Source: a virus
Direction: 5' to 3' (one strand)
Length of the DNA stretch: 39,616 nucleotides
IMG/VR virus record: IMGVR_UViG_3300045988_080187
Location: 1 to 39,616 of that record
The position numbers and the translations under genes are program-made. The notes below the pieces were generated by a model. The model had not been told where the DNA came from and made no database searches. It saw nothing but the letters and a program-made list of their open reading frames with translations. This document shows, piece after piece, positions 15,764-29,269 of this stretch; the stretch's first letter is position 1; every line of letters starts with the position of its first letter.

Positions 15764-15970
15764 TTTCTTGGATATTTTCTTGGACAAAATCTGTTTTTAG
15801 CTTATTTATGCATAAATTCATACTTTCTAAAAATACAAGAATGTGATTTTACTAATTTTACTATTCATTATTATTCGTGTATTTACGCTGTTTTCATACA
15901 AATTCAATATCTGAATATAGACTATTCTTGACTACTCGTTAAAAATTTTTCTTGGATATTTTCTTGGACA
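15764..15970. other. Candidate attP region: two exact 23-bp direct repeats TTTCTTGGATATTTTCTTGGACA (15764-15786 and 15948-15970), each containing an internal TTCTTGGA iteration, in the AT-rich gap downstream of the integrase gene.
   Basis: Read from the sequence. attP typically abuts the 3' end of the integrase gene. Confidence 0.4.
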
Positions 15971-16010: not shown

Positions 16011-16610
16011 ATGGCAATTAGCGAATTACAAAAACAGCTTTCAACTCTTTTAGTCAAATTACGCATCCGTCACGGATTATCTAAATTCAAGATGGCTACA
16101 CTTGCTGAAGTTTCTGACCACACGTGGGATAGATATGAAAACGGTGAATCTTCTCCGACTCTGCCAGAGTTCATTAATATTTACAACGAACTTGGCGAAG
16201 ATGCTTTACGTGATATTATAAGCATAATGTATCCAGATAAATACAATGGACTTGTTTCAGAAAGCAACATCAATGATTTGCGTAAATCTTTGATTCACTA
16301 TTTTACTCACGTAGCTTCAGAGCGTGTTATTCGTGAATGGGCTTTTCTTACTTTTGGTGATCATGGAAGTAGTTCATTGGCTCAATTAGAGATGTTCACA
16401 ATGATTGACCACTTGCCTATGAAATATAGATACATGATTGCTGAATCTATCAATAAATACTACGAAATGGCTTCTGCACATAATGAACTTGTTTCAACTG
16501 ATGAAACACTTCCAGATGTTGAACTATTCCGTATTGGTCTAAATTTAGGAAAAAAAGCAACAATGGAGAAAAAAGAATCATATTCATTAACAAAGAAAGA
16601 CGAGGATTAA
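16011..16610 (+). CDS. XRE-family HTH regulator, 199 aa, with an unknown C-terminal domain of about 130 aa.
   Basis: The N-terminus LVKLRIRHGLSKFKMATLAEVSDHTWDRYENGESSPTL is an HTH_3 motif. Confidence 0.6.
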   Translation: MAISELQKQLSTLLVKLRIRHGLSKFKMATLAEVSDHTWDRYENGESSPTLPEFINIYNELGEDALRDIISIMYPDKYNGLVSESNINDLRKSLIHYFTHVASERVIREWAFLTFGDHGSSSLAQLEMFTMIDHLPMKYRYMIAESINKYYEMASAHNELVSTDETLPDVELFRIGLNLGKKATMEKKESYSLTKKDED

Positions 16611-16897
16611 TTCTTCGCCTTTCTTATTTTTTCCATTATCAGCTCATACTCTTTAGGATACATTATCCTTACTGCTTCAACATGTTCATTTAATGCTTCT
16701 ATCAGTTTGCTTTTTGATATGCTGTTCGCAATCATTTCAAATTCTGTAGGATTAGCATCAACTGATCTTGTTGTGGTGCCTGTATCGCCTTCTTTTCTTA
16801 TTATATATAGTACAGCTAATTTCTCTGCAATCCTGTATGTTAAGTCATCTTCTTCTAATCTTTTAATTTCTTCATTGACTGCATTTAAGTCAATCAT
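16607..16897 (-). CDS. Hypothetical protein, 96 aa.
   Basis: ORF track; convergent with the 199-aa regulator. Confidence 0.5.
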   Translation of the reverse strand: MIDLNAVNEEIKRLEEDDLTYRIAEKLAVLYIIRKEGDTGTTTRSVDANPTEFEMIANSISKSKLIEALNEHVEAVRIMYPKEYELIMEKIRKAKN

Positions 16898-17043
16898 ATT
16901 TTTTTATCTATTTTATCCATACATTTGATTGCATTTAGAATCTTATAGATATTATCTAAATCACTAGCAGTCATCTTTCCTCTGTCTGCAAGCTCTTCTA
17001 ATTCTTTCATTAGCATTGCTCTTATCTTTTCGATGCAGTTCAT
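16894..17043 (-). CDS. Small ORF, 49 aa (MNCIEKIRAMLMKELEELADRGKMTASDLDNIYKILNAIKCMDKIDKKI), not in the ORF track.
   Basis: Hand translation; translationally coupled to its neighbours on both sides (TAATG and ATGA overlaps). Confidence 0.3.
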   Translation of the reverse strand: MNCIEKIRAMLMKELEELADRGKMTASDLDNIYKILNAIKCMDKIDKKI

Positions 17044-17438
17044 TATCTCACCGCCTTAACCGTTATCAATCCACTTGTAATTGTTCCTGCAACACTTAAC
17101 TGCAATGCTATTTTCGCATAGCTGTTTGTGTTTTGTGGTTCGATTTTCACGACATCATGAATTGTCAATGTCTGACTATCTGTTGTTGCACCTACCGTTT
17201 CTATCGCCTGTGCTTCTGTCAATGCTGTTCCATTTGCAAGTAAAGAAGCTGTAACATTTCCTACTGCTACTCCTGTAGTTACAATTTGTGCATCAATCTC
17301 ATAATACCCTGCTTGTCTTAGCTCTACTGTATTATCATTTGAATTCCATATTGCTTTAGAATTACTTTGCATTGCAATATTAAATGGAATATTTGTATTC
17401 GCTGTTACTGCTGTATTTAATATTCTTCCTTTATACAT
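17043..17438 (-). CDS. BclA-C-terminal-domain-like (C1q/TNF-like) protein, 131 aa, lacking collagen repeats.
   Basis: The pattern NIPFN...GYYEIDAQIV...SLLANG...TLTIHDVVKI...ITVKAV parallels the Bacillus BclA C-terminal domain (VPFN...GFYKITV...). This is recalled from memory, not searched. Confidence 0.45.
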   Translation of the reverse strand: MYKGRILNTAVTANTNIPFNIAMQSNSKAIWNSNDNTVELRQAGYYEIDAQIVTTGVAVGNVTASLLANGTALTEAQAIETVGATTDSQTLTIHDVVKIEPQNTNSYAKIALQLSVAGTITSGLITVKAVR

Positions 17439-17501
17439 TCTTTCTCCTTATAAAAAGAGATTGCCATAAGACAACCTCTGAATTTATGCCTTACGCATCA
17501 T

Positions 17502-18239
17502 TTATGCAAATACTGTGCCACCTGCATAATATGGCTGTGGAACATTAAATGCTGGAATTGGTGCAGGTCTCAGCTGACCAACAAGGTACTGATTCTGCAA
17601 TGTCTGGCTCTGTGCAAGTGTCAATGCAGATACCTTTCTTTCTAAATCATCAATCTTTGCCTGCTTTGCATTTAATTCCTGCTGACTCAGTTTATCAATA
17701 ATTGCTCGTGCATTATCGTTTTGGTTATTGATAATGTCTCTAGCATTCATGTTATCAGTATTCTTGATAGCACATGCTTCAGACTGAATATTGAAATTAG
17801 TCTGGTCAATCATTCGCTGAGTTTGACTTGCCTGTTGCAATGCATCGTAGCGATTCTTGCAGCAACAATCTGCTAACTGAGATGACAATGCATAGTTGCC
17901 ATCTTTAATTGCTGACTGTGTATCTGCAAAATTTCTTAGGTTTTCATATCCAACAGAAGACAATCCTTGAGATAACTGCATCATATGCATATTTTCATTA
18001 TCAGATAATCTTCCTACTGCATTCTGTAGATCATTGAAATTCATTGCACTACACAATCCTGCTTCTGTTACAGGCTGTTGTGGTGCTTCGCCTTTATTTC
18101 CGAAAAATCCGTTTCCCATAAAGGCAAACAAGAATAAGATAATAATCCAATAAGCACCATTTCCACCCCAACAGTCATTGTCTCTGTTTCCCATAACTGC
18201 TCCAATGTCGGCAGGTGTCATTCCTTCTGCTAAACTCAT
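17502..18239 (-). CDS. Membrane-anchored protein, 245 aa, with a Gln/Asn-rich coiled-coil region.
   Basis: One transmembrane helix (AYWIIILFLFAFMGNGFFG), a CCC motif and a Q/N-rich remainder. Confidence 0.5.
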   Translation of the reverse strand: MSLAEGMTPADIGAVMGNRDNDCWGGNGAYWIIILFLFAFMGNGFFGNKGEAPQQPVTEAGLCSAMNFNDLQNAVGRLSDNENMHMMQLSQGLSSVGYENLRNFADTQSAIKDGNYALSSQLADCCCKNRYDALQQASQTQRMIDQTNFNIQSEACAIKNTDNMNARDIINNQNDNARAIIDKLSQQELNAKQAKIDDLERKVSALTLAQSQTLQNQYLVGQLRPAPIPAFNVPQPYYAGGTVFA

Positions 18240-18282
18240 GTTTTTCTCCTTTCGCTATATTTCTATCGTTCCATGGCTACGA

Positions 18283-18477
18283 TTAGAAACCTTTTCCTGT
18301 CATAATCCCTTGAATCTGCTTCGCTAGATTCTGTATCATGTTCAACTGCTGTTGATTCATTCCAGAATTCTGCATAACCTGTTTTGCCAGCTGTTCTGGA
18401 TTTCCACTTACATTACTTCTGAACTGATTTAACATCTGTCTCAACTGTGGATTTCTTAATAATTCCATCGGATTCAT
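18283..18477 (-). CDS. Small Gln-rich protein, 64 aa.
   Basis: ORF track; Q-rich repeats. Confidence 0.4.
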   Translation of the reverse strand: MNPMELLRNPQLRQMLNQFRSNVSGNPEQLAKQVMQNSGMNQQQLNMIQNLAKQIQGIMTGKGF

Positions 18478-18820
18478 GTTGCATAACCTCTTTCAATCTT
18501 TCATCTAAATATTCTTTTGTTACATACTGATTCATATCTGTTTGTCTTTGTTCTTGAACTACAGCATAGTTATATTTCTGCATTGTAGGCATTCCATTTA
18601 CCATGCTTTTTACATAAAACATTGGTGCTTCTGAATCCCACAGAACTACTGTATTTCCATTTGCTACAAGATATGATTTTGCTCCAACTTCTCCCTGTAC
18701 CCAAATTCTAGAGTCTGTTGGTTGAATTTGCTGTTGATACCCTTGCATCGGTGATTGCATCTTGTACTGATTCAATGTATCTTGCATTGGCTGTGTATAG
18801 CCATAATATGGATAAGGCAT
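18413..18820 (-). CDS. Tyr/Gln-rich protein, about 135 aa. The start was moved to MPYPYYGY, which is preceded by AAAGGAGAAAATAT (track ORF 18413..18865).
   Basis: An RBS lies upstream of the internal M; a CATACA box sits just upstream. Confidence 0.45.
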   Translation of the reverse strand: MPYPYYGYTQPMQDTLNQYKMQSPMQGYQQQIQPTDSRIWVQGEVGAKSYLVANGNTVVLWDSEAPMFYVKSMVNGMPTMQKYNYAVVQEQRQTDMNQYVTKEYLDERLKEVMQHESDGIIKKSTVETDVKSVQK

Positions 18821-18907
18821 ATATTTTCTCCTTTGTATGCTTATATATTGCCATTTCATCTGCATGATTTGGTGCAGTCTTCATCCATTTTTTATTGCTT
18901 GAAAATA

Positions 18908-18946
18908 CAAAAAAAGTGCAAAAAAAGAGCAATCATTTCTGATTGC
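18908..18946 (-). terminator. Intrinsic terminator after the LuxR-type gene: hairpin GCAATC-N6-GATTGC plus a U-run on the minus strand.
   Basis: Read from the sequence. Confidence 0.55.
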
Positions 18947-19196
18947 CCAATTCGCATGCCTTTTTTACTCTTTTTGGAAGCAATGGAGTATATTTCTGTA
19001 TCTTATCGTACTTGGTTCTTAATATACGAATCATATTGTTTACAGTGCTTCGACTTACTCCAAGTTCGTATGCAATATCTTCTATACAACTTCCATGTGC
19101 TTTCATTGTCATGAGTTTTGCTTCACGTTCTGATAAGCATCCAAATTTTATAAATTCATTTAGACGTATCTCATTCCAAACTACTTGATGTGCCAT
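18933..19196 (-). CDS. GerE/LuxR-type HTH regulator, about 87 aa; the start is taken at the ATG of MAHQVV.
   Basis: LSEREAKLMTMKAHGSCIEDIAYELGVSRSTVNNMIRILRTKYD fits the LuxR/GerE HTH pattern; single-domain size. Confidence 0.6.
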   Translation of the reverse strand: MAHQVVWNEIRLNEFIKFGCLSEREAKLMTMKAHGSCIEDIAYELGVSRSTVNNMIRILRTKYDKIQKYTPLLPKRVKKACELGNQK

Positions 19197-19326
19197 TCTT
19201 GTCTCCAACTGTCAGCTCATCGTATTCTTTTTGCGTGAGCTTCTTCTTTGCTAGCAGTACATCCAAACGTTCCCTGCCCCAATAAGTAGGGTAGTACTTC
19301 TTAGCTAAATCAAATACTGATTTCAT
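19171..19326 (-). CDS. XkdX-like small protein, 51 aa (MKSVFDLAKKYYPTYWGRERLDVLLAKKKLTQKEYDELTVGD...), not in the ORF track.
   Basis: Hand translation with an ATGA overlap to the upstream gene. The pattern Y..W...R..V..G.IT.eEY..IT is typical of the PBSX XkdX family. Confidence 0.45.
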   Translation of the reverse strand: MKSVFDLAKKYYPTYWGRERLDVLLAKKKLTQKEYDELTVGDKNGTSSSLE

Positions 19327-19745
19327 GCTTCTGCTCCTGTATCTATGTCAGACAGAATACTGATGTACGCAATGTCTGCCTGTGCCTGTGTGAGTTGTTC
19401 TGACAGTTCGCTTACCTTGTCTGCAAGCGTTCTTTCCTGCAGATGGATTGTGATTTGATTTGATTCTGTATTCAGAGTAATCTCTTTGCCTAAGATTCTG
19501 TCATAATATTCTGCGATAATCTGTTCACTAGATTCAATAGAAGTCTCTCTAGAACCGTCAATGTTGAACTCTCCGTAAACCATGTGATTTACAGTCTCTA
19601 CTAACTGAACCGTTGCTAAATTTTCTGTAGTACATACCTTCTTCAAATCTTCGATTGTCGTATCACTAAGTACAAACCTCAAATCATTTTCTGTATTGTA
19701 CTCGATTACACTTAATTCCGTTTTATCAGATAATCTTAACTTCAT
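19323..19745 (-). CDS. XkdW-like protein, 140 aa, in the post-tail-fibre position.
   Basis: Called on position and size; the sequence match is weak. Confidence 0.4.
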   Translation of the reverse strand: MKLRLSDKTELSVIEYNTENDLRFVLSDTTIEDLKKVCTTENLATVQLVETVNHMVYGEFNIDGSRETSIESSEQIIAEYYDRILGKEITLNTESNQITIHLQERTLADKVSELSEQLTQAQADIAYISILSDIDTGAEA

Positions 19746-19754
19746 ACTTCTCCT

Positions 19755-21515
19755 TTACGCTGTTCTTCTCCAAATATAAGCACTGTAGTATGGTGGAAGA
19801 TTGCTTGATGAGCCTGTATTGCCATGGCTGTGTGATGCACTTCCACCTGTATTCTCAACGATTGTTACACGTCCTGTTTGACCTGTTCCAACTTTATACG
19901 GAACTACTGACTTTGCATCTCCACCACCACCTGCTGCATAAACTGATGCGTTTGTTTGAGTAGTGTGATTGTGAGAAGGCATTTCATGGACTGTCAGTGT
20001 GTGACCACCTGTTGTATGTGCGTGGGATGAATTTCCACCTGTAGACTTAACTGCATATGAATTACCTGCACCGATTATCATTCGGTCTTTAATCAGCTCC
20101 CATGTTCCACCCCATCTTGTGCTTGGATTAAAGTCTTTATCTTCTGTCGTGTAGATAGTACCTACAGGATAGAAAAAATCTAATACAGACCTAATTACAC
20201 TTTGCTTGTCGAACAGATAGCTATCTGGCCCAAGAACAACTCCCTGCTTAATCATTGCGAATGCGTACTGTCCGACACCTAAATAAGCAGTAGCTGACAT
20301 ACTTTCCCCAAAGCTGTCTGTAACTGTTACTGCAATTGAGAATGACAGTGTGTAATACAAGTCAGTATATGCTTTGCTGAAACTAATATTCCCACTGCTT
20401 AGCGTTGGTGTAACAGATGTTGCACTGCTTGCATCATTACGTTTGATGCTCATGCTCACAGTGTTGTTCAATATCGTAGAATATGTACCACTAGCACTTA
20501 ATGTACCCTTCTGTGATGTATCACTCTCACGCTTCAATGAAGCAGTAACATAAGGCTTTGAGTAAGCATAATACGTCTGCTTTACAGTACCTGTTGACTG
20601 CAAACCTCGATTGTCTGTAGCTGTAACAGTATATGTTCCATTACTCTTATTTGAGACATAACCTGTATAAGCACCATTGCTGTACGACAGAGTTACACCA
20701 TCACAGACTACAGATTTGATTCCTGTTGAGTACTTGGCTGTTACAGGAACAGATACTAGCTTTCTAGAAATCTGCTGAACTGTAACATTTCCATTTTTAG
20801 CTTTTACACCATCATGCTGTTCGGTAAGGCTGATTGTTCCAACTGTTGGATTTGCATCACTTGGAACATGAAGATTGAAATTACATGTTTTTGTATCTCC
20901 AATTTTTGTAGAGCCACTATACGTTTCAACAGATATTCCCCCATAGCCAACTGTAGCTGTGCTGATTTGATCTAGCAGAGATGTTGGTGGAGTCCATGAA
21001 CAGTTGTCTACAACTCCTGTAGCAATCACTCCACTCTTCTTCCCAAAAGAATAAGAAACTTTATGAGTGAAATTTGCATGCTTATTCATGTGAATCGTAC
21101 ATGCAACTCCTGCGGTGATATTTGGACTGTTGTTTGGATATGTGTTGATTGATGGCTGTGAAGCTCTTGGGATAGTACTGAGAGTTAAAGTAAACTCTCC
21201 ATAAGGCATGCTTCCATATCCAGATGAATAATATGAACCGACTGTAGCTGAACCTGTTCCATCGGCATTGTGATTTGCCCAGAATCCACCACTGACTAGC
21301 TTAACCCAGCCATTAGCTGTCAAATGTGAATTTGTATATCCACCACCACCGGTAACATTACAATCAACATTGTAAGCTGAGTAACTACTACCTAAAATCC
21401 ACAGTTCAGTACTTACATACGAACGGTTGTTTGCAATATCGACCTGTGTTTCATCAGCATACACATGAATAGATGAATAGGTAGATAGTGCATGTGAACG
21501 TCTTTCCGTTGCCAT
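19755..21515 (-). CDS. Tail fibre / receptor-binding protein with a C-terminal phage tail-collar domain.
   Basis: YPVGTIYTTEDKDFNPSTRWGGTWELIKDRMIIGAG followed by His-rich repeats (SHAHTTGGHTLTVHEMPSHNHT...HSHGNTG). Confidence 0.75.
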   Translation of the reverse strand: MATERRSHALSTYSSIHVYADETQVDIANNRSYVSTELWILGSSYSAYNVDCNVTGGGGYTNSHLTANGWVKLVSGGFWANHNADGTGSATVGSYYSSGYGSMPYGEFTLTLSTIPRASQPSINTYPNNSPNITAGVACTIHMNKHANFTHKVSYSFGKKSGVIATGVVDNCSWTPPTSLLDQISTATVGYGGISVETYSGSTKIGDTKTCNFNLHVPSDANPTVGTISLTEQHDGVKAKNGNVTVQQISRKLVSVPVTAKYSTGIKSVVCDGVTLSYSNGAYTGYVSNKSNGTYTVTATDNRGLQSTGTVKQTYYAYSKPYVTASLKRESDTSQKGTLSASGTYSTILNNTVSMSIKRNDASSATSVTPTLSSGNISFSKAYTDLYYTLSFSIAVTVTDSFGESMSATAYLGVGQYAFAMIKQGVVLGPDSYLFDKQSVIRSVLDFFYPVGTIYTTEDKDFNPSTRWGGTWELIKDRMIIGAGNSYAVKSTGGNSSHAHTTGGHTLTVHEMPSHNHTTQTNASVYAAGGGGDAKSVVPYKVGTGQTGRVTIVENTGGSASHSHGNTGSSSNLPPYYSAYIWRRTA

Positions 21516-21516
21516 A

Positions 21517-24500
21517 CTACTGCACCACCTTCTTCAGCTTGCCAATGTGATAGAACACAGAAGCATCTTGATTCAGCACATTGCCATATTCCATTCTGTG
21601 CGATGCACACATAAAGTAATCATTAACTGCTAGATTGTTCATTCTACTGTCTGGGCCAAGAACCCCATTTTCTGTATTGTTTGTATAGAAGTGAGAGCCA
21701 TCACTTTTCTGATGAACATAGTTTTTTGAATTTGCTTTTTCGTAGATTCGCACACCTTGTGCATCAATCTTTACTACCTGTTCAATGTTGCTTACACCTT
21801 GATGTGCTCCATTTGCCAATTCTGTTGCTTTATCAGCAGATATCTGTGCGTCTTTGGCTTTATTAATTGCATCTTGATATGACTTAATAGCACTGTCTGC
21901 TGATGCCTGTGCAGAACCAGCTTTATTCAAAGCGTCATTTGCTGTACTCTGTGCATCATTCGCTGTCTGTTTAGCAGTACTTGCATTTGTCTGTGCACTA
22001 TTTGCAGTAGACTGTGCATTGCTGATATCAGCGTCCACATCCTCTGGAGCAGGAGTCCAATCGGTTGCAACGTTACCTAGTTCGAGTTTTGGACATGCAA
22101 AATATACATATTTACCTTCTTCGGTATTTTTCTGCAAAATTTCAAAGCCAAAATATGTCATTCCTGTTCCTGAAGTTTTAAGAATGGAATCTGTAACAGT
22201 GAATGTCAACGAATATTGAGCCCATTCTTTACTTAAAGTAAATTGCCTTACTGAACTATCAAAATCATAACGTCCATTTGAATCATTAAATGCTCGATTG
22301 AACATCATTATACTGATTGGAGAAATGTTATCTGTTTTAGCGTAGATACTATACGTCAATTTATCGCCAACATGAACCACATTACGTTCTGTAACATGTT
22401 TATTGAAAAATACTCTTAAGCCATTCCATGCTTTTTGTGCCGAAAAAATTCTACAATTTTTAAATAAATTCTCTGTCGAATTCAAACCATTAAGTAAGTA
22501 ATAAGTTCCATCTTTAGGAATTCTAGAATTCAGTAGTAAATTCCTTCCACCGACATTTACTCCCTTTAATGTGCTTCCAACAGAATATGATGTACTCTTC
22601 GTGTCATCTGTATATGTAATCACAGTTCTAGTCCAAAGGTATGGCTTATCAGCAGTAGTGTCTGGAACAGTCGTTACCCATGTACCGTTAGGTGTGGATG
22701 TACCATTATACCAAATCTGATAAGTAACCTCAGTAGACTTTACACCTCTACCATTACTTCCATTTTGACCGTTCGCTCCGTTAGTCCCTTGATAAGCGAC
22801 AGAATAAGCAGTTGTAGAGTTGCCATCGGAGTAAGTTACAACAGTTTTAGTCCAAAGATACTGACCTTTGGCAACTGTTGGTGGATTAGCTACCCATGCA
22901 CCTGTAGGAGTTGTAGTTCCACTAGTAGATGCTTGGTAAGTAACAGATTTAGCTGTGATTTTAACCGAGGTTCCATCATTACCTTTATCACCCTTTGCAC
23001 CTGTATTTCCCTGTACACAAGATGGCTCTGAATAACTGATTTCACCTTTCTTGTTTTCTGTTCTTAAACGTTGCCAGATGTAGTTGGTTTCAGTCCATGC
23101 AGGTCTAGATTCACTCCATGAGCCACCTTTCAGCTCTGTTGGAGATGTACTTACATACCACTCTGTTACTGCTTCGGACAGACTCGATGTGATAGTATTT
23201 TCTGTTGCTTCGTCAAAGCTACCAATCTGCAGTGTTTTGGCTTTGATGAGATTTCCATCCAACTCACCGAAATTAATCAAACTAGCATTGACTCCATCGC
23301 CTGTAATCGCTGTTGAATATGGGCCATTGTACCCACTCTTCGAAATACCTAATCCATTCTTGTTTAAACGGATGCAATTCACCATTTGTTCAATATTAGG
23401 TGAGTCACCAACAATAATTTCAGACGGAAATCCATTCACGTAGTTTGTAACTACATATCCACCTAAGCCACCTTTAATAAGCTCTGTTTGATATTTGATT
23501 ACTGCATCTAATATTGACTTTGTTACTGCACTGTCAGCAACTTTTGTTATTTCAGAAATTGTTGATGCAAGTGAAGAACGAACTGAACCAATCTTCAAAT
23601 AATCATATCTTTCTGCTAAAACGTCATACTTGTATTCAATGACCTTTGCTTTTGCATCTACTCCAAGCTCTGAAAATCTAACTGTTACTGTATCTCCAAG
23701 ATTGATTCTTTCTCTAGATAAATTCTTGTACTCTTCTGTATCCTCTAATGCAACAAAAGAAACATCGAGTGATACTTGTGGTACTCCCACACAGTTATTC
23801 TTGATGTACGATTCCGTGTATACCCTTAACTGCTCTACTGTCGGTTCTTCTTCAAAATTTGATGAAAAATCCTTAACAACAGTTCTCTTGAATGGGTATT
23901 TGCTTGCATATTCGCTTTCAATAGGTGTTTCAATGCTTACAACTTTGTCATTAGAATCCTTCCAAAAAGGAACTATACCTGTGATTACTTTGTCTATTGA
24001 TTCTTCTTGTTCTAGGTCTGTTAGATTTTTGCCATACTCAATGACTACTCCTCTATCTATGCCTCTGTGTGCATGCAGTTTGACTGTATAATTATCAAAC
24101 TCATATTCGCCACCGAAGCAGTCAAGAATAGACCCAGCTACCCCACCAAGTCTCTGTCTGAATGATGCAGGTTCCTTCTGTGAGTACTTTGTAGCTGTAT
24201 TCGAAATGTCAGTCCATACACTGAATGGATTGCTTGTCAAAGAATGATCTTTAAGTCCATTTAAGGCTTCAAGAACACCAACAGCATCAAACGGTTTAAC
24301 AGGTACATAGCTTAACTGATAAGAAATGTGTGTTGCTTCAACAGTCACTTTTCCACCAATTGGTTTTGTGATTGTGTCGATTCTGAAATGCTGAACTGCT
24401 TTTCCGTCAGAAGGTATTGCATCTACAATTGCCCCAACCTTGATATCAGAAAAATGCACTCCTGTTATTGGATATGTGAATTTCAATTCATATACGCCAT

Positions 24501-27782: not shown

Positions 27783-28154
27783 CTATATTTTGTGATTGAG
27801 ATATTCATCAATCTCTTTGCTTACTAGCTGAATATCATCGGTGTTTTCTCCACCTAGCTGATTTTTAAGAGTGGCTTGTGTTCCCTTCATAAGCAATCGT
27901 AAAATCACATGGTTATCCTGTTGTTCCTTAGTCATCGTCAGAACTGTTGATTCAAGAGCTTTCAACCTTTTGTTGTCAGAATCTAACAGCTCTTTGTTAT
28001 GTGCTACATCTCTTTCGAGTTTTGCAACAGAAGTCTTTGAACGACACCATGTAATGAATTTAGCGACTGCTGTTACAGCCCCTGCAACACTTGCTCCATA
28101 GACGATCCATTGAGCAATCAAAGCCCACACTTCCATTGGTATCTGTGCAGGCAT
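27783..28154 (-). CDS. Holin-like / lysis accessory membrane protein, 123 aa, with an N-terminal transmembrane segment and a C-terminal coiled coil (XhlA-like role).
   Basis: The transmembrane segment EVWALIAQWIVYGASVAGAVTAVAKFI; located beside the holin and lysin. Confidence 0.5.
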   Translation of the reverse strand: MPAQIPMEVWALIAQWIVYGASVAGAVTAVAKFITWCRSKTSVAKLERDVAHNKELLDSDNKRLKALESTVLTMTKEQQDNHVILRLLMKGTQATLKNQLGGENTDDIQLVSKEIDEYLNHKI

Positions 28155-28157
28155 TTA

Positions 28158-28421
28158 TTACCCCTCAGCTTCGTCTACTGTCTTTTCTGTTTCTTCTTCA
28201 ATATATTCTGTTTCAGAATCCATTTCTTGCTTAAGATTCAATGCAGATACACCAATCAGAACACCTACAAGTGTTCCTAATGCCTGTAATGTCTTTGCAA
28301 CTTCGGCTGTATATGGAAGGTTCCAAATAGCACCAATAGTTGAGTAAAATGTTCCAATTGCAGGTAATGCAATTAAAGCTACCCATTTCAATACTTTGTA
28401 TACTCTGTCATTTAATACCAT
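28158..28421 (-). CDS. Holin of the SPP1/BhlA type, about 87 aa; start at MVLNDRVYK after GAGGAGAAAAATA.
   Basis: Two transmembrane helices (WVALIALPAIGTFYSTIGAIW and LGTLVGVLIGVSALN) and an acidic C-terminal tail. A strong RBS precedes the internal ATG. Confidence 0.65.
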   Translation of the reverse strand: MVLNDRVYKVLKWVALIALPAIGTFYSTIGAIWNLPYTAEVAKTLQALGTLVGVLIGVSALNLKQEMDSETEYIEEETEKTVDEAEG

Positions 28422-28432
28422 TATTTTTCTCC

Positions 28433-29269
28433 TCAAGGATTTGCATTTGTTAGATATGGTGATGTACCACTGTTTACCTTCGCACCACTTGATACATATC
28501 CTTCTTTCTTTCCGTCTGTCACTCTGTACCAAACTGTATTTCCGTTATATGCATAATAGCCATAGTAAGTAACGGTAGTTCCCTTTGCTAAGGTCTTTAC
28601 GATAGATGCTTTAGTGGAAGCATCAGTTCGCATATTAAGTGCAACCTTAGTAACCATCTTCTTTCCTTTGCCATAGCCTTTTACAAATCCATGCTTGATT
28701 GTTCCACCACTAGATGGATTTGATACAGTGTATGGAACTGTTTTAGTTGTCTTCCATGACAGCCCACCACCGTTTCTGATATATGAATAGCCATCTAATA
28801 AGAACAGCATTTGGTTAGCTCTAAGCATGTTTGCTAGGATATAGCCACCTTTACTATTTCTGTATTTCTGTCTGACATGACCTGCACAGATTTCCAAGTG
28901 AATGTGGTTCCCTGTAGCGTATCCAGAAGTACCTTCTTGATACATGATTTCGTTATACCCATAGAATTTACCAACTATAAATGACCGTTTACTATGAGTT
29001 AATGCAAGAGTGATGTATCTTAATGCACCATCTGCACATAAGACCTTCTTTGGTTTTCCATCTTTTCCGTAGCTCCAGAAGAAGCGAGTATTTCCTGTGT
29101 TTGCATTTCCCCATGCACCTGCACAGTACCATCTTGTGTTAGGCATCTTGTTTCTCCAGACATCTACACCTGTATCCATACCTGCAAGATCTACTTCAAA
29201 ACTAGTATGGGAATAGTGATTTTTTCCATCATATCCAGAGCCAACTTGAGACACATTCAGACACTTCAT
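28433..29269 (-). CDS. Endolysin: an M23-like peptidase catalytic domain plus a C-terminal SH3b cell-wall-binding domain.
   Basis: GTSGYATGNHIHLEI resembles the M23 HxH motif (stG.HLHFE). The C-terminus VALNMRTDASTKASIVKTLAKGTTVTYYGYYAYNGNTVWYRVTDGKKEGYVSS is SH3b-like. Confidence 0.65.
   Translation of the reverse strand: MKCLNVSQVGSGYDGKNHYSHTSFEVDLAGMDTGVDVWRNKMPNTRWYCAGAWGNANTGNTRFFWSYGKDGKPKKVLCADGALRYITLALTHSKRSFIVGKFYGYNEIMYQEGTSGYATGNHIHLEICAGHVRQKYRNSKGGYILANMLRANQMLFLLDGYSYIRNGGGLSWKTTKTVPYTVSNPSSGGTIKHGFVKGYGKGKKMVTKVALNMRTDASTKASIVKTLAKGTTVTYYGYYAYNGNTVWYRVTDGKKEGYVSSGAKVNSGTSPYLTNANP

What the first reader, a model, noticed from the sequence alone, without database searches (positions are those of the whole stretch)
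17043..19196. A GerE/LuxR-type regulator with Tyr/Gln-rich, membrane and BclA-C-like proteins sits where the lysis cassette normally lies
In PBSX/SPP1-like phages, lysis genes (holins and lysin) follow the tail fibre and the xkdW and xkdX genes. Here XkdW-like (19323-19745) and XkdX-like (19171-19326) genes are followed instead by five genes of a different kind. These are a single-domain LuxR/GerE-type HTH of 87 aa with its own terminator, a Tyr/Gln-rich protein (MPYPYYGY...), a Gln-rich 64-aa protein, a 245-aa membrane protein with a Q/N-rich coiled coil, and a 131-aa protein patterned like the C1q/TNF-like C-terminal domain of the exosporium protein BclA. GerE-like regulators and Tyr-rich or BclA-like proteins are hallmarks of spore coat and exosporium modules. 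One possibility is therefore a phage-borne spore-surface or lysogenic-conversion cassette; another is a receptor-binding accessory complex. The lysis genes have been moved elsewhere, into the tail module. This is the most plausible candidate for an undescribed system in the window.
Basis: partly seen in the sequence, partly recalled or inferred. Interest (0 to 1): 0.8.

Follow-up and report, generated by a model that had tools for sequence, protein, structure and literature searches.

The report
Widespread gut-phage membrane-fibre accessory operon
The five genes are real. They belong to a seven-gene operon of unknown function that thousands of gut phages carry at the far end of the prophage, and it is not a spore-coat cassette because this phage's host (Bulleidia) and many other carriers do not form spores.

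Summary
All five genes exist at the stated coordinates. Profile searches support the LuxR/GerE-type HTH (above Pfam's cut-off) and the BclA_C (C1q/TNF-like) domain (significant, below cut-off).

The unit is larger than reported. It is a collinear operon: HTH, Tyr/Gln-rich protein, Gln-rich 64-aa protein, single-pass membrane protein with an invariant CCC motif, C1q/TNF-like protein, and two small helical proteins (19196 to 16607, minus strand).

The same gene order recurs in 89 viral or metagenomic loci and in 44 bacterial genome loci. Carriers include Collinsella, Bulleidia, Bacteroidales, Selenomonadaceae and Mollicutes. The membrane protein family has about 2,600 clusters at 50% identity and no Pfam family.

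This phage integrates in Bulleidia, a non-spore-forming genus, so the spore-surface reading fails by its own criterion. The receptor-binding-accessory reading is also weakened: near-identical modules sit behind different tail-fibre cassettes.

In other prophages the module lies after holin and endolysin, at the prophage end. It is an extra accessory unit, not a substitute for lysis.

My best guess, at low confidence, is a self-regulated accessory operon that builds a membrane-anchored fibrous complex acting on the envelope of the infected or lysogenic cell. Function is untested.

The parts
18933..19196 (-). HTH87: a single-domain LuxR/GerE- or sigma-70-region-4-type HTH and the first gene of the module. 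The mosaic junction with the tail-fibre cassette lies at about 19208.
   Evidence: Pfam GerE scores 28.6 bits, above the cut-off of 23.5, with Sigma70_r4_2 at 22.1 bits. Homology with sister phages that carry other fibre cassettes resumes at 19208. An HTH gene lies 77-168 nt upstream of the Tyr/Gln-rich gene in about 30 loci.
18927..18948 (-). Intrinsic terminator overlapping the HTH stop codon. A 112-nt spacer follows, with A/T-rich -10-like boxes, and then a strong RBS.
   Evidence: Nine-pair stem plus a T7 run. A hairpin plus T-run at the same place, with different stem sequences, occurs in L003, L004, L025/L032, L033 and L038, followed by TATAAT-like boxes.
18413..18820 (-). YQ135: an N-terminal Tyr/Pro/Gln-rich disordered region, a small beta-alpha-beta3 core (residues 37-88), a C-terminal amphipathic helix (102-117) and a disordered tail.
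18283..18477 (-). Q64: a small Gln/Asn-rich helical protein. Its start overlaps the 3' end of YQ135 by 65 nt.
   Evidence: phrog_22984 at E=6e-6. Found in 77 of 89 loci, always between the YQ and TM genes, with a median overlap of -13 nt. No PDB relative.
17502..18239 (-). TM245: the signature gene. It has a conserved N-terminal peptide (MTPADI..), one transmembrane helix flanked by Gly-rich stretches, long N/Q-rich helices with an invariant QLADCCC motif, and a Pro/Tyr-rich C-terminal tail. In most relatives the tail is Cys/Gly-rich; this clade has lost that.
   Evidence: phrog_16490 at E=2e-27. More than 1,300 homologues, none with a Pfam family. 2,596 clusters at 50% identity reach E<=1e-3. 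Invariant residues are listed. The AF2 model shows long helices at low confidence, pLDDT 52.6. It is the only module protein with a hydrophobic segment. Tail cysteines are analysed.
17456..17479 (-). Weak terminator-like hairpin between TM245 and Bcl131. It may act as an attenuator that sets stoichiometry.
   Evidence: Ten-pair stem plus a T-run. Hairpin plus T-run with unrelated stems occurs at the same place in several clades: L004, L024, L025/32, L030, L033 and L043.
17043..17438 (-). Bcl131: a stand-alone C1q/TNF-like (BclA_C-type) jelly-roll domain. It has no collagen repeats, no signal peptide and no Cys in this clade.
   Evidence: Pfam BclA_C at E=7.6e-8 and 32.7 bits, below the cut-off of 38. 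Eight of 23 family members hit BclA_C. Precomputed PF18573 hits are recorded on sister contigs. The only PDB profile hit is cerebellin-4, a C1q domain, at E=1.1. It follows TM245 in 82 of 89 loci.
16894..17043 (-). s49: a short helical protein whose start overlaps the Bcl131 stop. It matches the N-terminal helical domain of a 130-190-aa family whose middle is Arg/Tyr/Ser/Asp/Gly-rich.
   Evidence: Iterative HMM hits in 67 of 89 loci, directly after Bcl131 with a median gap of 6 nt. Alignment A6.
16607..16897 (-). s96: a small helical protein and the last gene of the operon. Its ATG overlaps the s49 stop (ATGA).
   Evidence: Homologues of about 105 aa occupy the same position in L004, L021, L022, L030, L050, L072, L101, L104, L108, L117, L131 and the C. 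perfringens phages.
16601..16617 (.). Hairpin between the convergent genes s96 and HTH199; a probable bidirectional terminator.
16011..16610 (+). HTH199: an Xre-type HTH protein convergent with the operon. It travels with the module in this clade and is the last gene before the prophage end.
   Evidence: Pfam HTH_31 at E=7e-6. It is adjacent to host genes in integrated copies L138, L140, L141, L142 and L143. A 203-aa counterpart is present in L004.
15825..15842 (.). Approximate phage/host junction (attP core). In integrated copies, homology to the window stops here.
   Evidence: blastn end points are 15825 (L138, L140, L143) and 15842 (L141). Host genes follow in those loci.

Best explanation
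The finding is the first five genes of a seven-gene accessory operon that is exchanged between phages as a unit. In temperate gut phages it normally sits after the lysis cassette, at the very end of the prophage. This much is shown.

The rest is inferred. The operon appears to have its own small LuxR/sigma-r4-type regulator. A terminator after the regulator gene insulates the downstream genes from late read-through. A promoter-like box then appears to drive five or six strongly translated genes.

TM245 is the only membrane protein. It would anchor in the cytoplasmic membrane by its single N-terminal helix. Its N/Q-rich helical region, stapled or metal-bridged at the invariant CCC motif, would form an oligomeric (probably trimeric) stalk.

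The stand-alone C1q/TNF-like protein Bcl131, trimeric by analogy with that fold, would associate with the Cys/Gly/Tyr-rich C-terminal tail of the stalk. The Tyr/Gln-rich YQ135, Q64 and the two small helical proteins would serve as assembly or cross-linking partners.

The complex would change the envelope of the infected or lysogenic cell. The most likely roles are excluding superinfecting phage, keeping progeny from readsorbing, or otherwise converting the cell surface.

It is not a spore-surface cassette. It is not tied to the phage's receptor-binding proteins.
For: Shown:
- Strict collinearity of [HTH]-YQ-Q-TM-Bcl-[s49]-[s96] in 89 viral or metagenomic loci, and independently in 44 genome loci from several phyla.
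- The family is very large and unannotated.
- The module is 95-98% identical behind different tail-fibre cassettes, with a junction at 19208.
- The module plus HTH199 form the extreme end of the integrated prophage.
- In L134, L136, L093, L117, L109, L122 and Vescimonas fastidiosa MM35 the order is (fibre)-holin-endolysin-module-integrase or host DNA. From general knowledge of Firmicutes prophages, this is the classical site of accessory or conversion genes.
- A terminator with non-homologous stems is conserved after the HTH gene, followed by a -10-like box.
- Only TM245 has a hydrophobic segment.
- BclA_C similarity.
- The number of Cys in the TM245 tail correlates with the number in Bcl131: rho 0.56, n=67. 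This fits contact between the two.
- Relatives occur in sipho-, myo- and podo-type phages and in early regions of C. perfringens phages. This argues against a morphotype-specific virion part.
- No match to known defence systems.
Against: - No experiment and no expression data exist. The timing of expression (lysogen, early or very late) is unknown.
- None of the partner proteins has a signal peptide, and the topology of TM245 is ambiguous: K+R counts are equal on both sides of the helix. An extracellular stalk capped by Bcl131 would therefore need non-classical release. Alternatively, the whole complex is cytoplasmic.
- The TM245 model has low confidence, and oligomeric state was not computed.
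- A six-protein machine conserved across phyla is unusual for superinfection exclusion, which is normally one or two lineage-specific proteins.
- Strong ribosome-binding sites and low-complexity, structural-looking proteins would also suit a late, abundant product.
- The Cys correlation is not corrected for phylogeny.
- In crAss-like phages only TM245 is confidently found.
Confidence: 0.35

Rival explanations
1. Lysis or egress accessory. TM245 would act on the cytoplasmic membrane at the end of infection, like an i-spanin, a T4 T-type holin or an antiholin, with its soluble partners. The HTH, made at the tail end of the late operon, would switch the module on last.
For: The module directly abuts holin or endolysin genes in L005-7, L134, L136, L093 and L144, and in the window it occupies the usual lysis-cassette position. 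TM245 has the N-terminal TM plus long helical, Cys-containing region and Pro-rich end seen in i-spanins and class III holins. In the window the HTH gene overlaps the last late gene by 26 nt and is followed by a terminator, so a feed-forward 'very late' switch is possible. Wall-less Mollicutes also carry the module, which points to the membrane as the target.
Against: Every genome examined also has a canonical holin, or an endolysin or candidate lysin, elsewhere or next to the module. No lipoprotein partner (o-spanin) exists, and the host is monoderm. In C. perfringens phages and a Bacteroides phage the gene sits among early or recombination genes. There is no sequence similarity to any holin or spanin family.
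Confidence: 0.2
2. Virion-associated accessory fibre or decoration. TM245 (stalk), Bcl131 (TNF-like knob) and YQ135 (small trimerisation-like domain plus helix) would assemble in the cytoplasm into a fibre carried by the particle. This resembles the coiled-coil needle with a TNF-like knob of Sf6, or a split BclA/adenovirus-type fibre.
For: None of the soluble proteins has a signal peptide, as expected for virion parts. The N/Q-rich, Lys-poor helical region is typical of phage fibres and trimeric adhesins, with weak YadA and HA2 profile hits. The C1q/TNF-like fold is a common fibre head. In one large clade and in a Lachnospiraceae isolate the module sits inside the head gene cluster. Ribosome-binding sites are strong.
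Against: A bona fide transmembrane helix is unexpected in a tailed-phage particle. The same module occurs in sipho-, myo- and podo-type genomes and moves between head, early and prophage-end positions. It is uncoupled from the tail-fibre cassette. It carries its own regulator and terminator, which is unlike structural genes.
Confidence: 0.1
3. Phage-borne anti-phage defence, abortive-infection or counter-defence system, with TM245 as a membrane effector and the soluble proteins as sensors.
For: Prophage-end location, own HTH regulator, a multi-gene conserved operon and a membrane protein. From general knowledge, many prophage defence systems occupy such loci.
Against: No PADLOC model matches beyond generic HTH noise. 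No enzymatic, NTPase or nuclease domain is present in any member. The proteins are low-complexity or fibrous, which is atypical for defence systems.
Confidence: 0.1
4. One reading: a spore-coat or exosporium (GerE- and BclA-type) cassette that modifies the host's spore surface.
For: Real GerE-family and BclA_C profile matches. Composition is reminiscent of coat proteins: Tyr-rich, Cys-rich and Arg/Tyr/Ser-rich. Q64 has a faint Coat_F hit at E=0.04.
Against: The host is Bulleidia, a non-spore-former. The module is found in Collinsella, Bacteroidales, Paludibacteraceae, Selenomonadaceae and Mollicutes genomes. Bcl131 lacks the collagen repeats and N-terminal targeting region of BclA. The HTH matches sigma-r4 and other HTH families about as well as GerE.
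Confidence: 0.02

Closest known systems
BclA / C1q-TNF superfamily fibres (B. anthracis exosporium BclA; TNF ligands as type II membrane proteins with stalk and trimeric head)
   Same: Bcl131 matches the BclA_C jelly-roll profile. Together with TM245, the parts list of membrane or basal anchor, elongated stalk and C1q/TNF-like head is the same.
   Different: Stalk and head are separate polypeptides. The stalk is helical and N/Q-rich rather than collagen. There is no exosporium-targeting N-terminus and no signal peptide on the head. The module is encoded by phages of non-sporulating bacteria. The association of the two proteins is inferred, not shown.
Prophage-end 'moron' or lysogenic-conversion and superinfection-exclusion genes (e.g. 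Sie2009 of lactococcal P335 phages, Ltp of TP-J34, genes between lysin and attR in streptococcal and staphylococcal prophages)
   Same: Position after the lysis genes at the prophage end. An insulating terminator and promoter-like box. A membrane-anchored product. Exchange as a cassette.
   Different: Six to seven conserved genes rather than one or two. Conserved across bacterial phyla and also present in phages without obvious lysogeny genes. No sequence similarity to any described Sie protein. Expression in the lysogen is not demonstrated.
Two-component spanins (lambda Rz/Rz1) and the class III holin T of T4
   Same: TM245 has an N-terminal transmembrane helix followed by a long helical, Cys-containing region with a Pro-rich end. 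The module is frequently adjacent to holin and endolysin genes.
   Different: No outer-membrane lipoprotein partner. The hosts are mostly monoderm. No profile similarity. Canonical holins are present alongside.
PBSX late-operon end (xkdV-xkdW-xkdX-xepA-xhlA-xhlB-xlyA)
   Same: Small genes of unknown role lie between the tail fibre and the lysis or prophage end, including accessory proteins without signal peptides (XepA).
   Different: No Pfam match to XkdW, XkdX, XepA or XhlA for any gene here. The 140-aa and 51-aa genes belong to the fibre cassette, not to the module.

Membership tests
LuxR/GerE-type HTH (Pfam PF00196) | Profile match above the curated gathering score over the HTH core | tested here: met
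   28.6 bits against a cut-off of 23.5, covering residues 25-66 and profile positions 3-44 of 57. Sigma70_r4_2, HTH_11 and ParB HTH score 22-23 bits, so the safe assignment is the LuxR/sigma-region-4 HTH superfamily.
GerE proper (spore-coat gene regulator of Bacillus) | Acts in the mother cell of a sporulating host | tested here: not met
   The host is Bulleidia sp., a non-spore-former. HTH-bearing modules also occur in Bacteroidaceae, Paludibacteraceae and Selenomonadaceae loci.
BclA_C (Pfam PF18573; C1q/TNF-like jelly roll) | Profile match at or above the gathering score | tested here: inconclusive
   E=7.6e-8 but 32.7 bits, below the cut-off of 38, covering 77 of 128 profile positions. Eight of 23 family members match, best E=1e-8. 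Precomputed PF18573 hits are recorded on sister proteins. No structure was predicted for this protein.
BclA exosporium glycoprotein | Collagen-like GXX repeat stalk and N-terminal exosporium-targeting region on the same polypeptide | tested here: not met
   The 131-aa protein consists of the domain only, with no GXX repeats.
Spore coat / exosporium module | Restricted to endospore-forming hosts | tested here: not met
   Full modules occur in Collinsella, Bulleidia, Bacteroidales, Selenomonadaceae and Mollicutes genome loci.
Two-component spanin | An i-spanin (N-terminal TM plus periplasmic coiled coil) together with an o-spanin lipoprotein carrying a lipobox | tested here: not met
   TM245 has the i-spanin-like layout. 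No other module protein has a signal or lipobox-bearing hydrophobic N-terminus: the fraction with a hydrophobic window is 0-1%.
Known anti-phage defence systems (PADLOC-DB 2.0) | Profile match of at least one signature protein | tested here: not met
   Only generic HTH matches for HTH87. TM245's best E is 0.024. The others have none.
Moron / autonomous accessory transcription unit | Own promoter and terminator, located between conserved modules, present or absent independently of its neighbours | tested here: inconclusive
   The upstream terminator is conserved with a -10-like box after it. Terminal hairpin at 16601-16617. Sharp mosaic junction at 19208. The module occupies different genomic positions in different phage groups. 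Promoter activity and expression in the lysogen were not testable.
XkdW / XkdX (PBSX) for the two upstream genes | Match to Pfam XkdW or Phage_XkdX profiles | tested here: not met
   No Pfam family at E<=1 for 19171-19326. Only a Pyr_redox chance hit for 19323-19745.

The most novel reading that the evidence does not exclude
Gut phages of at least four bacterial phyla share a previously unrecognised machine. It would be a membrane-anchored fibre built like a split TNF-ligand or BclA: a helical stalk with CCC 'knots' and a Cys/Gly tail, plus a separate C1q/TNF-like head, assembled with prion-like Tyr/Gln-rich partners. Infected or lysogenic cells, or the membrane debris they release, would display it to engage other phages, other bacteria or even the mammalian host.
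Probability: 0.15. Interest if true: 0.85.

Novelty: categorically new. Interest (0 to 1): 0.62.

Why it matters
The signature protein family has about 2,600 clusters at 50% identity. It has no Pfam family and no functional annotation in the public phage records examined; the only labels are homology-based ones such as 'spike protein/glycoprotein'. Its operon keeps the same gene order in phages of Bacillota, Actinomycetota, Bacteroidota and wall-less Mollicutes.

A conserved multi-protein accessory system this common in human gut viromes should reflect a general step of phage-host interaction that is not yet described. Candidates are envelope conversion, exclusion or egress.

The system is now directly testable, because cultivable carriers were identified:
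- C. perfringens phages HMD-PC1, XP41-N3 and vB_CpeS-17DYC
- Vescimonas fastidiosa MM35
- Lachnospiraceae bacterium JLR.KK009
- Bulleidia isolates
- Bacteroides phage C3_41T2LP (TM245 homologue only)

The result also corrects an attractive but wrong inference. 'GerE' and 'BclA' domain names do not imply sporulation.

Tried and rejected
- DNA similarity of 16500-19800 to 50,697 phage records found no match.
- Profile searches of all module families against PDB sequences gave only coiled-coil noise (HA2, YadA, SYCE2) for TM245, cerebellin-4 at E=1.1 for Bcl131, and nothing for YQ135, Q64, s49 or s96.
- The AF2 model of TM245 has mean pLDDT 52.6, too poor for a fold search.
- The BFVD search returned only unannotated relatives whose machine-made names derive from the coiled coil.
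- NCBIfam and PADLOC returned nothing beyond the HTH.
- A search for Rosetta-stone fusions of TM245 with Bcl131 among the best 150 representatives found none. One 387-aa protein is a probable tape-measure chimera.
- The positive-inside rule gave no topology call for TM245.
- Rejected readings: spore-surface cassette (host range); receptor-binding accessory (uncoupled from fibre cassettes); replacement of the lysis cassette (the module normally follows the lysis genes).
- The plasmid collection gave only 2 hits, one of them a prophage in a Vescimonas megaplasmid.


Full report
**1. Observation**

The window is a complete 39,616-bp temperate siphophage contig. Its late genes run on the minus strand from terminase (about 38.5 kb) to a DUF859/Gp10_C tail fibre at 19755-21515.

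- HTH87, 18933-19196.
- YQ135, 18413-18820, starting MPYPYYGY. The longer 150-aa ORF is an over-extension; homologues start at the same Met.
- Q64, 18283-18477.
- TM245, 17502-18239.
- Bcl131, 17043-17438.

- HTH87 passes Pfam's GerE threshold (28.6 against 23.5 bits), though it scores almost as well against sigma-70 region 4 and other HTH families.
- Bcl131 matches BclA_C at E=7.6e-8, below the curated threshold (32.7 against 38 bits). Eight of 23 family members match, and precomputed hits are recorded on sister proteins.

The terminator after the HTH gene is real. A Dp-1 holin (28158-28415) and an SH3_3-bearing 278-aa protein sit between the tail chaperones and the tape measure. The 278-aa protein is a candidate lysin whose catalytic domain is unassigned.

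The 'XkdW/XkdX-like' labels are not supported by profiles.

**2. The unit is larger and is a conserved operon**

Two further genes are translationally coupled to Bcl131 and end at a hairpin shared with the convergent gene HTH199. They are s49 (16894-17043) and s96 (16607-16897).

I collected 89 loci that encode TM245 relatives, from annotated phage records, metagenomic contigs and IMG/VR. I then ran iterative HMM searches seeded with the window's own proteins. The order [HTH]-YQ-Q-TM-Bcl(x1-2)-[s49-like]-[s96-like] recurs almost everywhere:
- YQ in 84 loci
- Q64 in 77 loci
- Bcl in 82 loci
- s49-like in 67 loci

Gaps between genes are tiny or negative. An independent set of 44 loci from GTDB species genomes shows the same order.

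TM245 relatives number more than 1,300 in a word-indexed search. In an exhaustive HMMER scan they form 2,596 clusters at 50% identity. None has a Pfam family.

In the PHROGs library, YQ135, Q64 and TM245 fall in families of unknown function.

**3. Not about spores, and not tied to the receptor-binding proteins**

Integrated copies of this very phage were found. They end with module-HTH199 followed by host genes.

The host-flank proteins fall in clusters (>=90% identity) with proteins of Bulleidia sp. The flavin reductase is the exact sequence recorded for isolate HCP3S3_F2. Bulleidia is described as non-spore-forming, with 36.6% G+C like the window (PMC11636350, PMC3713990).

Full modules also occur in Collinsella, Bacteroidales, Selenomonadaceae and Mollicutes/Anaeroplasmatales genome loci. 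Some of these are MAG bins, but several sit on contigs of 120-290 kb.

Sister phages share the module at 95-98% DNA identity but carry unrelated or 66-76%-identical tail-fibre cassettes. The homology break falls exactly at 19208. So the 140-aa and 51-aa genes belong to the fibre cassette, and the module is a separate exchange unit.

**4. Where the module sits**

In seven other prophage loci the module follows, or is flanked by, an endolysin or candidate lysin. A holin is also seen next to it in L134, L136 and the cultured Vescimonas fastidiosa MM35. The module is followed by the integrase or host DNA. The loci are L134, L136, L093, L117, L109, L122 and MM35.

In L005-7 it precedes holin and endolysin. 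In one large clade and in a Lachnospiraceae isolate it is inserted in the head gene cluster. In the isolate, a C5 DNA methylase is inserted within the module.

In C. perfringens phages it lies among early genes. In crAss-like phages and a Bacteroides phage only the TM245 homologue is confidently detected.

The module is therefore an extra, mobile unit. In the window it abuts the fibre genes only because holin and lysin moved elsewhere.

**5. Anatomy of the proteins**

TM245:
- It has a conserved N-terminal peptide and one hydrophobic helix flanked by Gly-rich stretches.
- About 170 residues of N/Q-rich, Lys-poor helix follow, with an invariant QLADCCC motif. The motif is duplicated in some relatives.
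- The Pro/Tyr tail is Cys/Gly-rich in nearly all relatives (for example GCGCNTGCGC). The window clade has lost this.
- The Cys count of that tail correlates with the Cys count of the neighbouring Bcl protein (rho 0.56, n=67). This is not corrected for phylogeny.

s49-like proteins elsewhere carry an Arg/Tyr/Ser/Asp/Gly-rich middle.

No module protein other than TM245 has a signal peptide or transmembrane segment. TM245's topology is not decided by charge.

**6. Regulation**

A hairpin plus T-run with unrelated stem sequences follows the HTH gene in the window, L003, L004, L025/32, L033 and L038. An A/T-rich -10-like box follows it, then a strong RBS. This suggests an insulated transcription unit whose promoter may depend on HTH87.

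A second, weaker hairpin between TM245 and Bcl131 recurs in several clades.

**7. Interpretation**

The following is secure. This is a conserved, self-contained, horizontally exchanged phage accessory operon. It has one membrane protein and a C1q/TNF-like protein. It is unrelated to sporulation and uncoupled from receptor-binding genes.

The function is inferred. I favour, at about 0.35, a membrane-anchored and probably trimeric fibrous complex that alters the envelope of the infected or lysogenic cell, for exclusion or surface conversion. The reasons are:
- its position at the prophage end
- its own regulator and insulating terminator
- its presence in early regions of some phages
- its independence of virion morphotype

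Rivals are:
- a lysis or egress accessory (0.2), supported by adjacency to lysis genes and an i-spanin/holin-T-like layout
- a virion fibre (0.1)
- a defence or counter-defence system (0.1)
- the spore idea (0.02)

**8. Novelty**

No described system matches:
- PADLOC and NCBIfam give no match beyond generic HTH hits.
- The PDB profile searches find no significant relative.
- The literature searches found nothing relevant.

The parts (HTH, jelly roll, coiled coil) are familiar. The assembly, its composition and its cross-phylum conservation are not.

Noticed in passing
window 27783-29269 (minus strand): A Dp-1-type holin, a 278-aa SH3_3 protein with an HIHLE motif (named 'Morphogenesis protein 1 hydrolase' in one nr record), and a 123-aa TM-plus-coiled-coil protein are inserted between the tail assembly chaperones and the tape-measure gene. 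This is an unusual place for a lysis cassette, and the catalytic domain of the 278-aa protein is unassigned.
   Followed up: partly
window 19209-23200 compared with L138-L143: Near-identical phages swap the distal tail region (the C-terminal part of Tal, the DUF859 fibre and the 140- and 51-aa genes) for other cassettes, some with an extra 660-860-aa protein. The junction with the module at 19208 is sharp.
   Followed up: partly
window 15825-15842; L138/L140/L143 and L141/L142: The same phage lineage is integrated at two different Bulleidia chromosomal sites, next to feoB or next to a pfkB-family kinase. The end points differ slightly (15825 against 15842). The integrase is 445 aa in one sister contig and 422 aa in another.
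   Followed up: partly
window 17456-17479 and the same position in L004, L024, L025/32, L030, L033, L043: A terminator-like hairpin with a T-run lies between the membrane-protein gene and the C1q/TNF-like gene. Its stems are unrelated in different clades. It may be an attenuator that sets the ratio of upstream to downstream products.
   Followed up: partly
L119 6934-8049 (Lachnospiraceae bacterium JLR.KK009, CP143549.1): A C-5 cytosine DNA methylase gene is inserted inside the module, between the TM245 and Bcl131 homologues. The operon therefore tolerates cargo insertion at the hairpin position.
   Followed up: no
P0239 and P0297 (TM245 relatives): The segment carrying the invariant ..Q(L/I)(A/S)DCCC motif is tandemly duplicated, so the stalk seems to be built of repeatable CCC-containing units.
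   Followed up: no
L107, L111, L112, L114, L123 (including Mollicutes/Anaeroplasmatales and other MAG loci): TM245 homologues appear split into two ORFs under translation table 11. For the Mollicutes-type loci this would fit TGA read as Trp (code 4). Otherwise these are frameshifts.
   Followed up: no
window 16011-16610 (+): A 199-aa Xre-type HTH protein with an uncharacterised C-terminal domain is the last gene of the integrated prophage. It is convergent with the module and travels with it in this clade and in L004. It may be part of the module's control.
   Followed up: no
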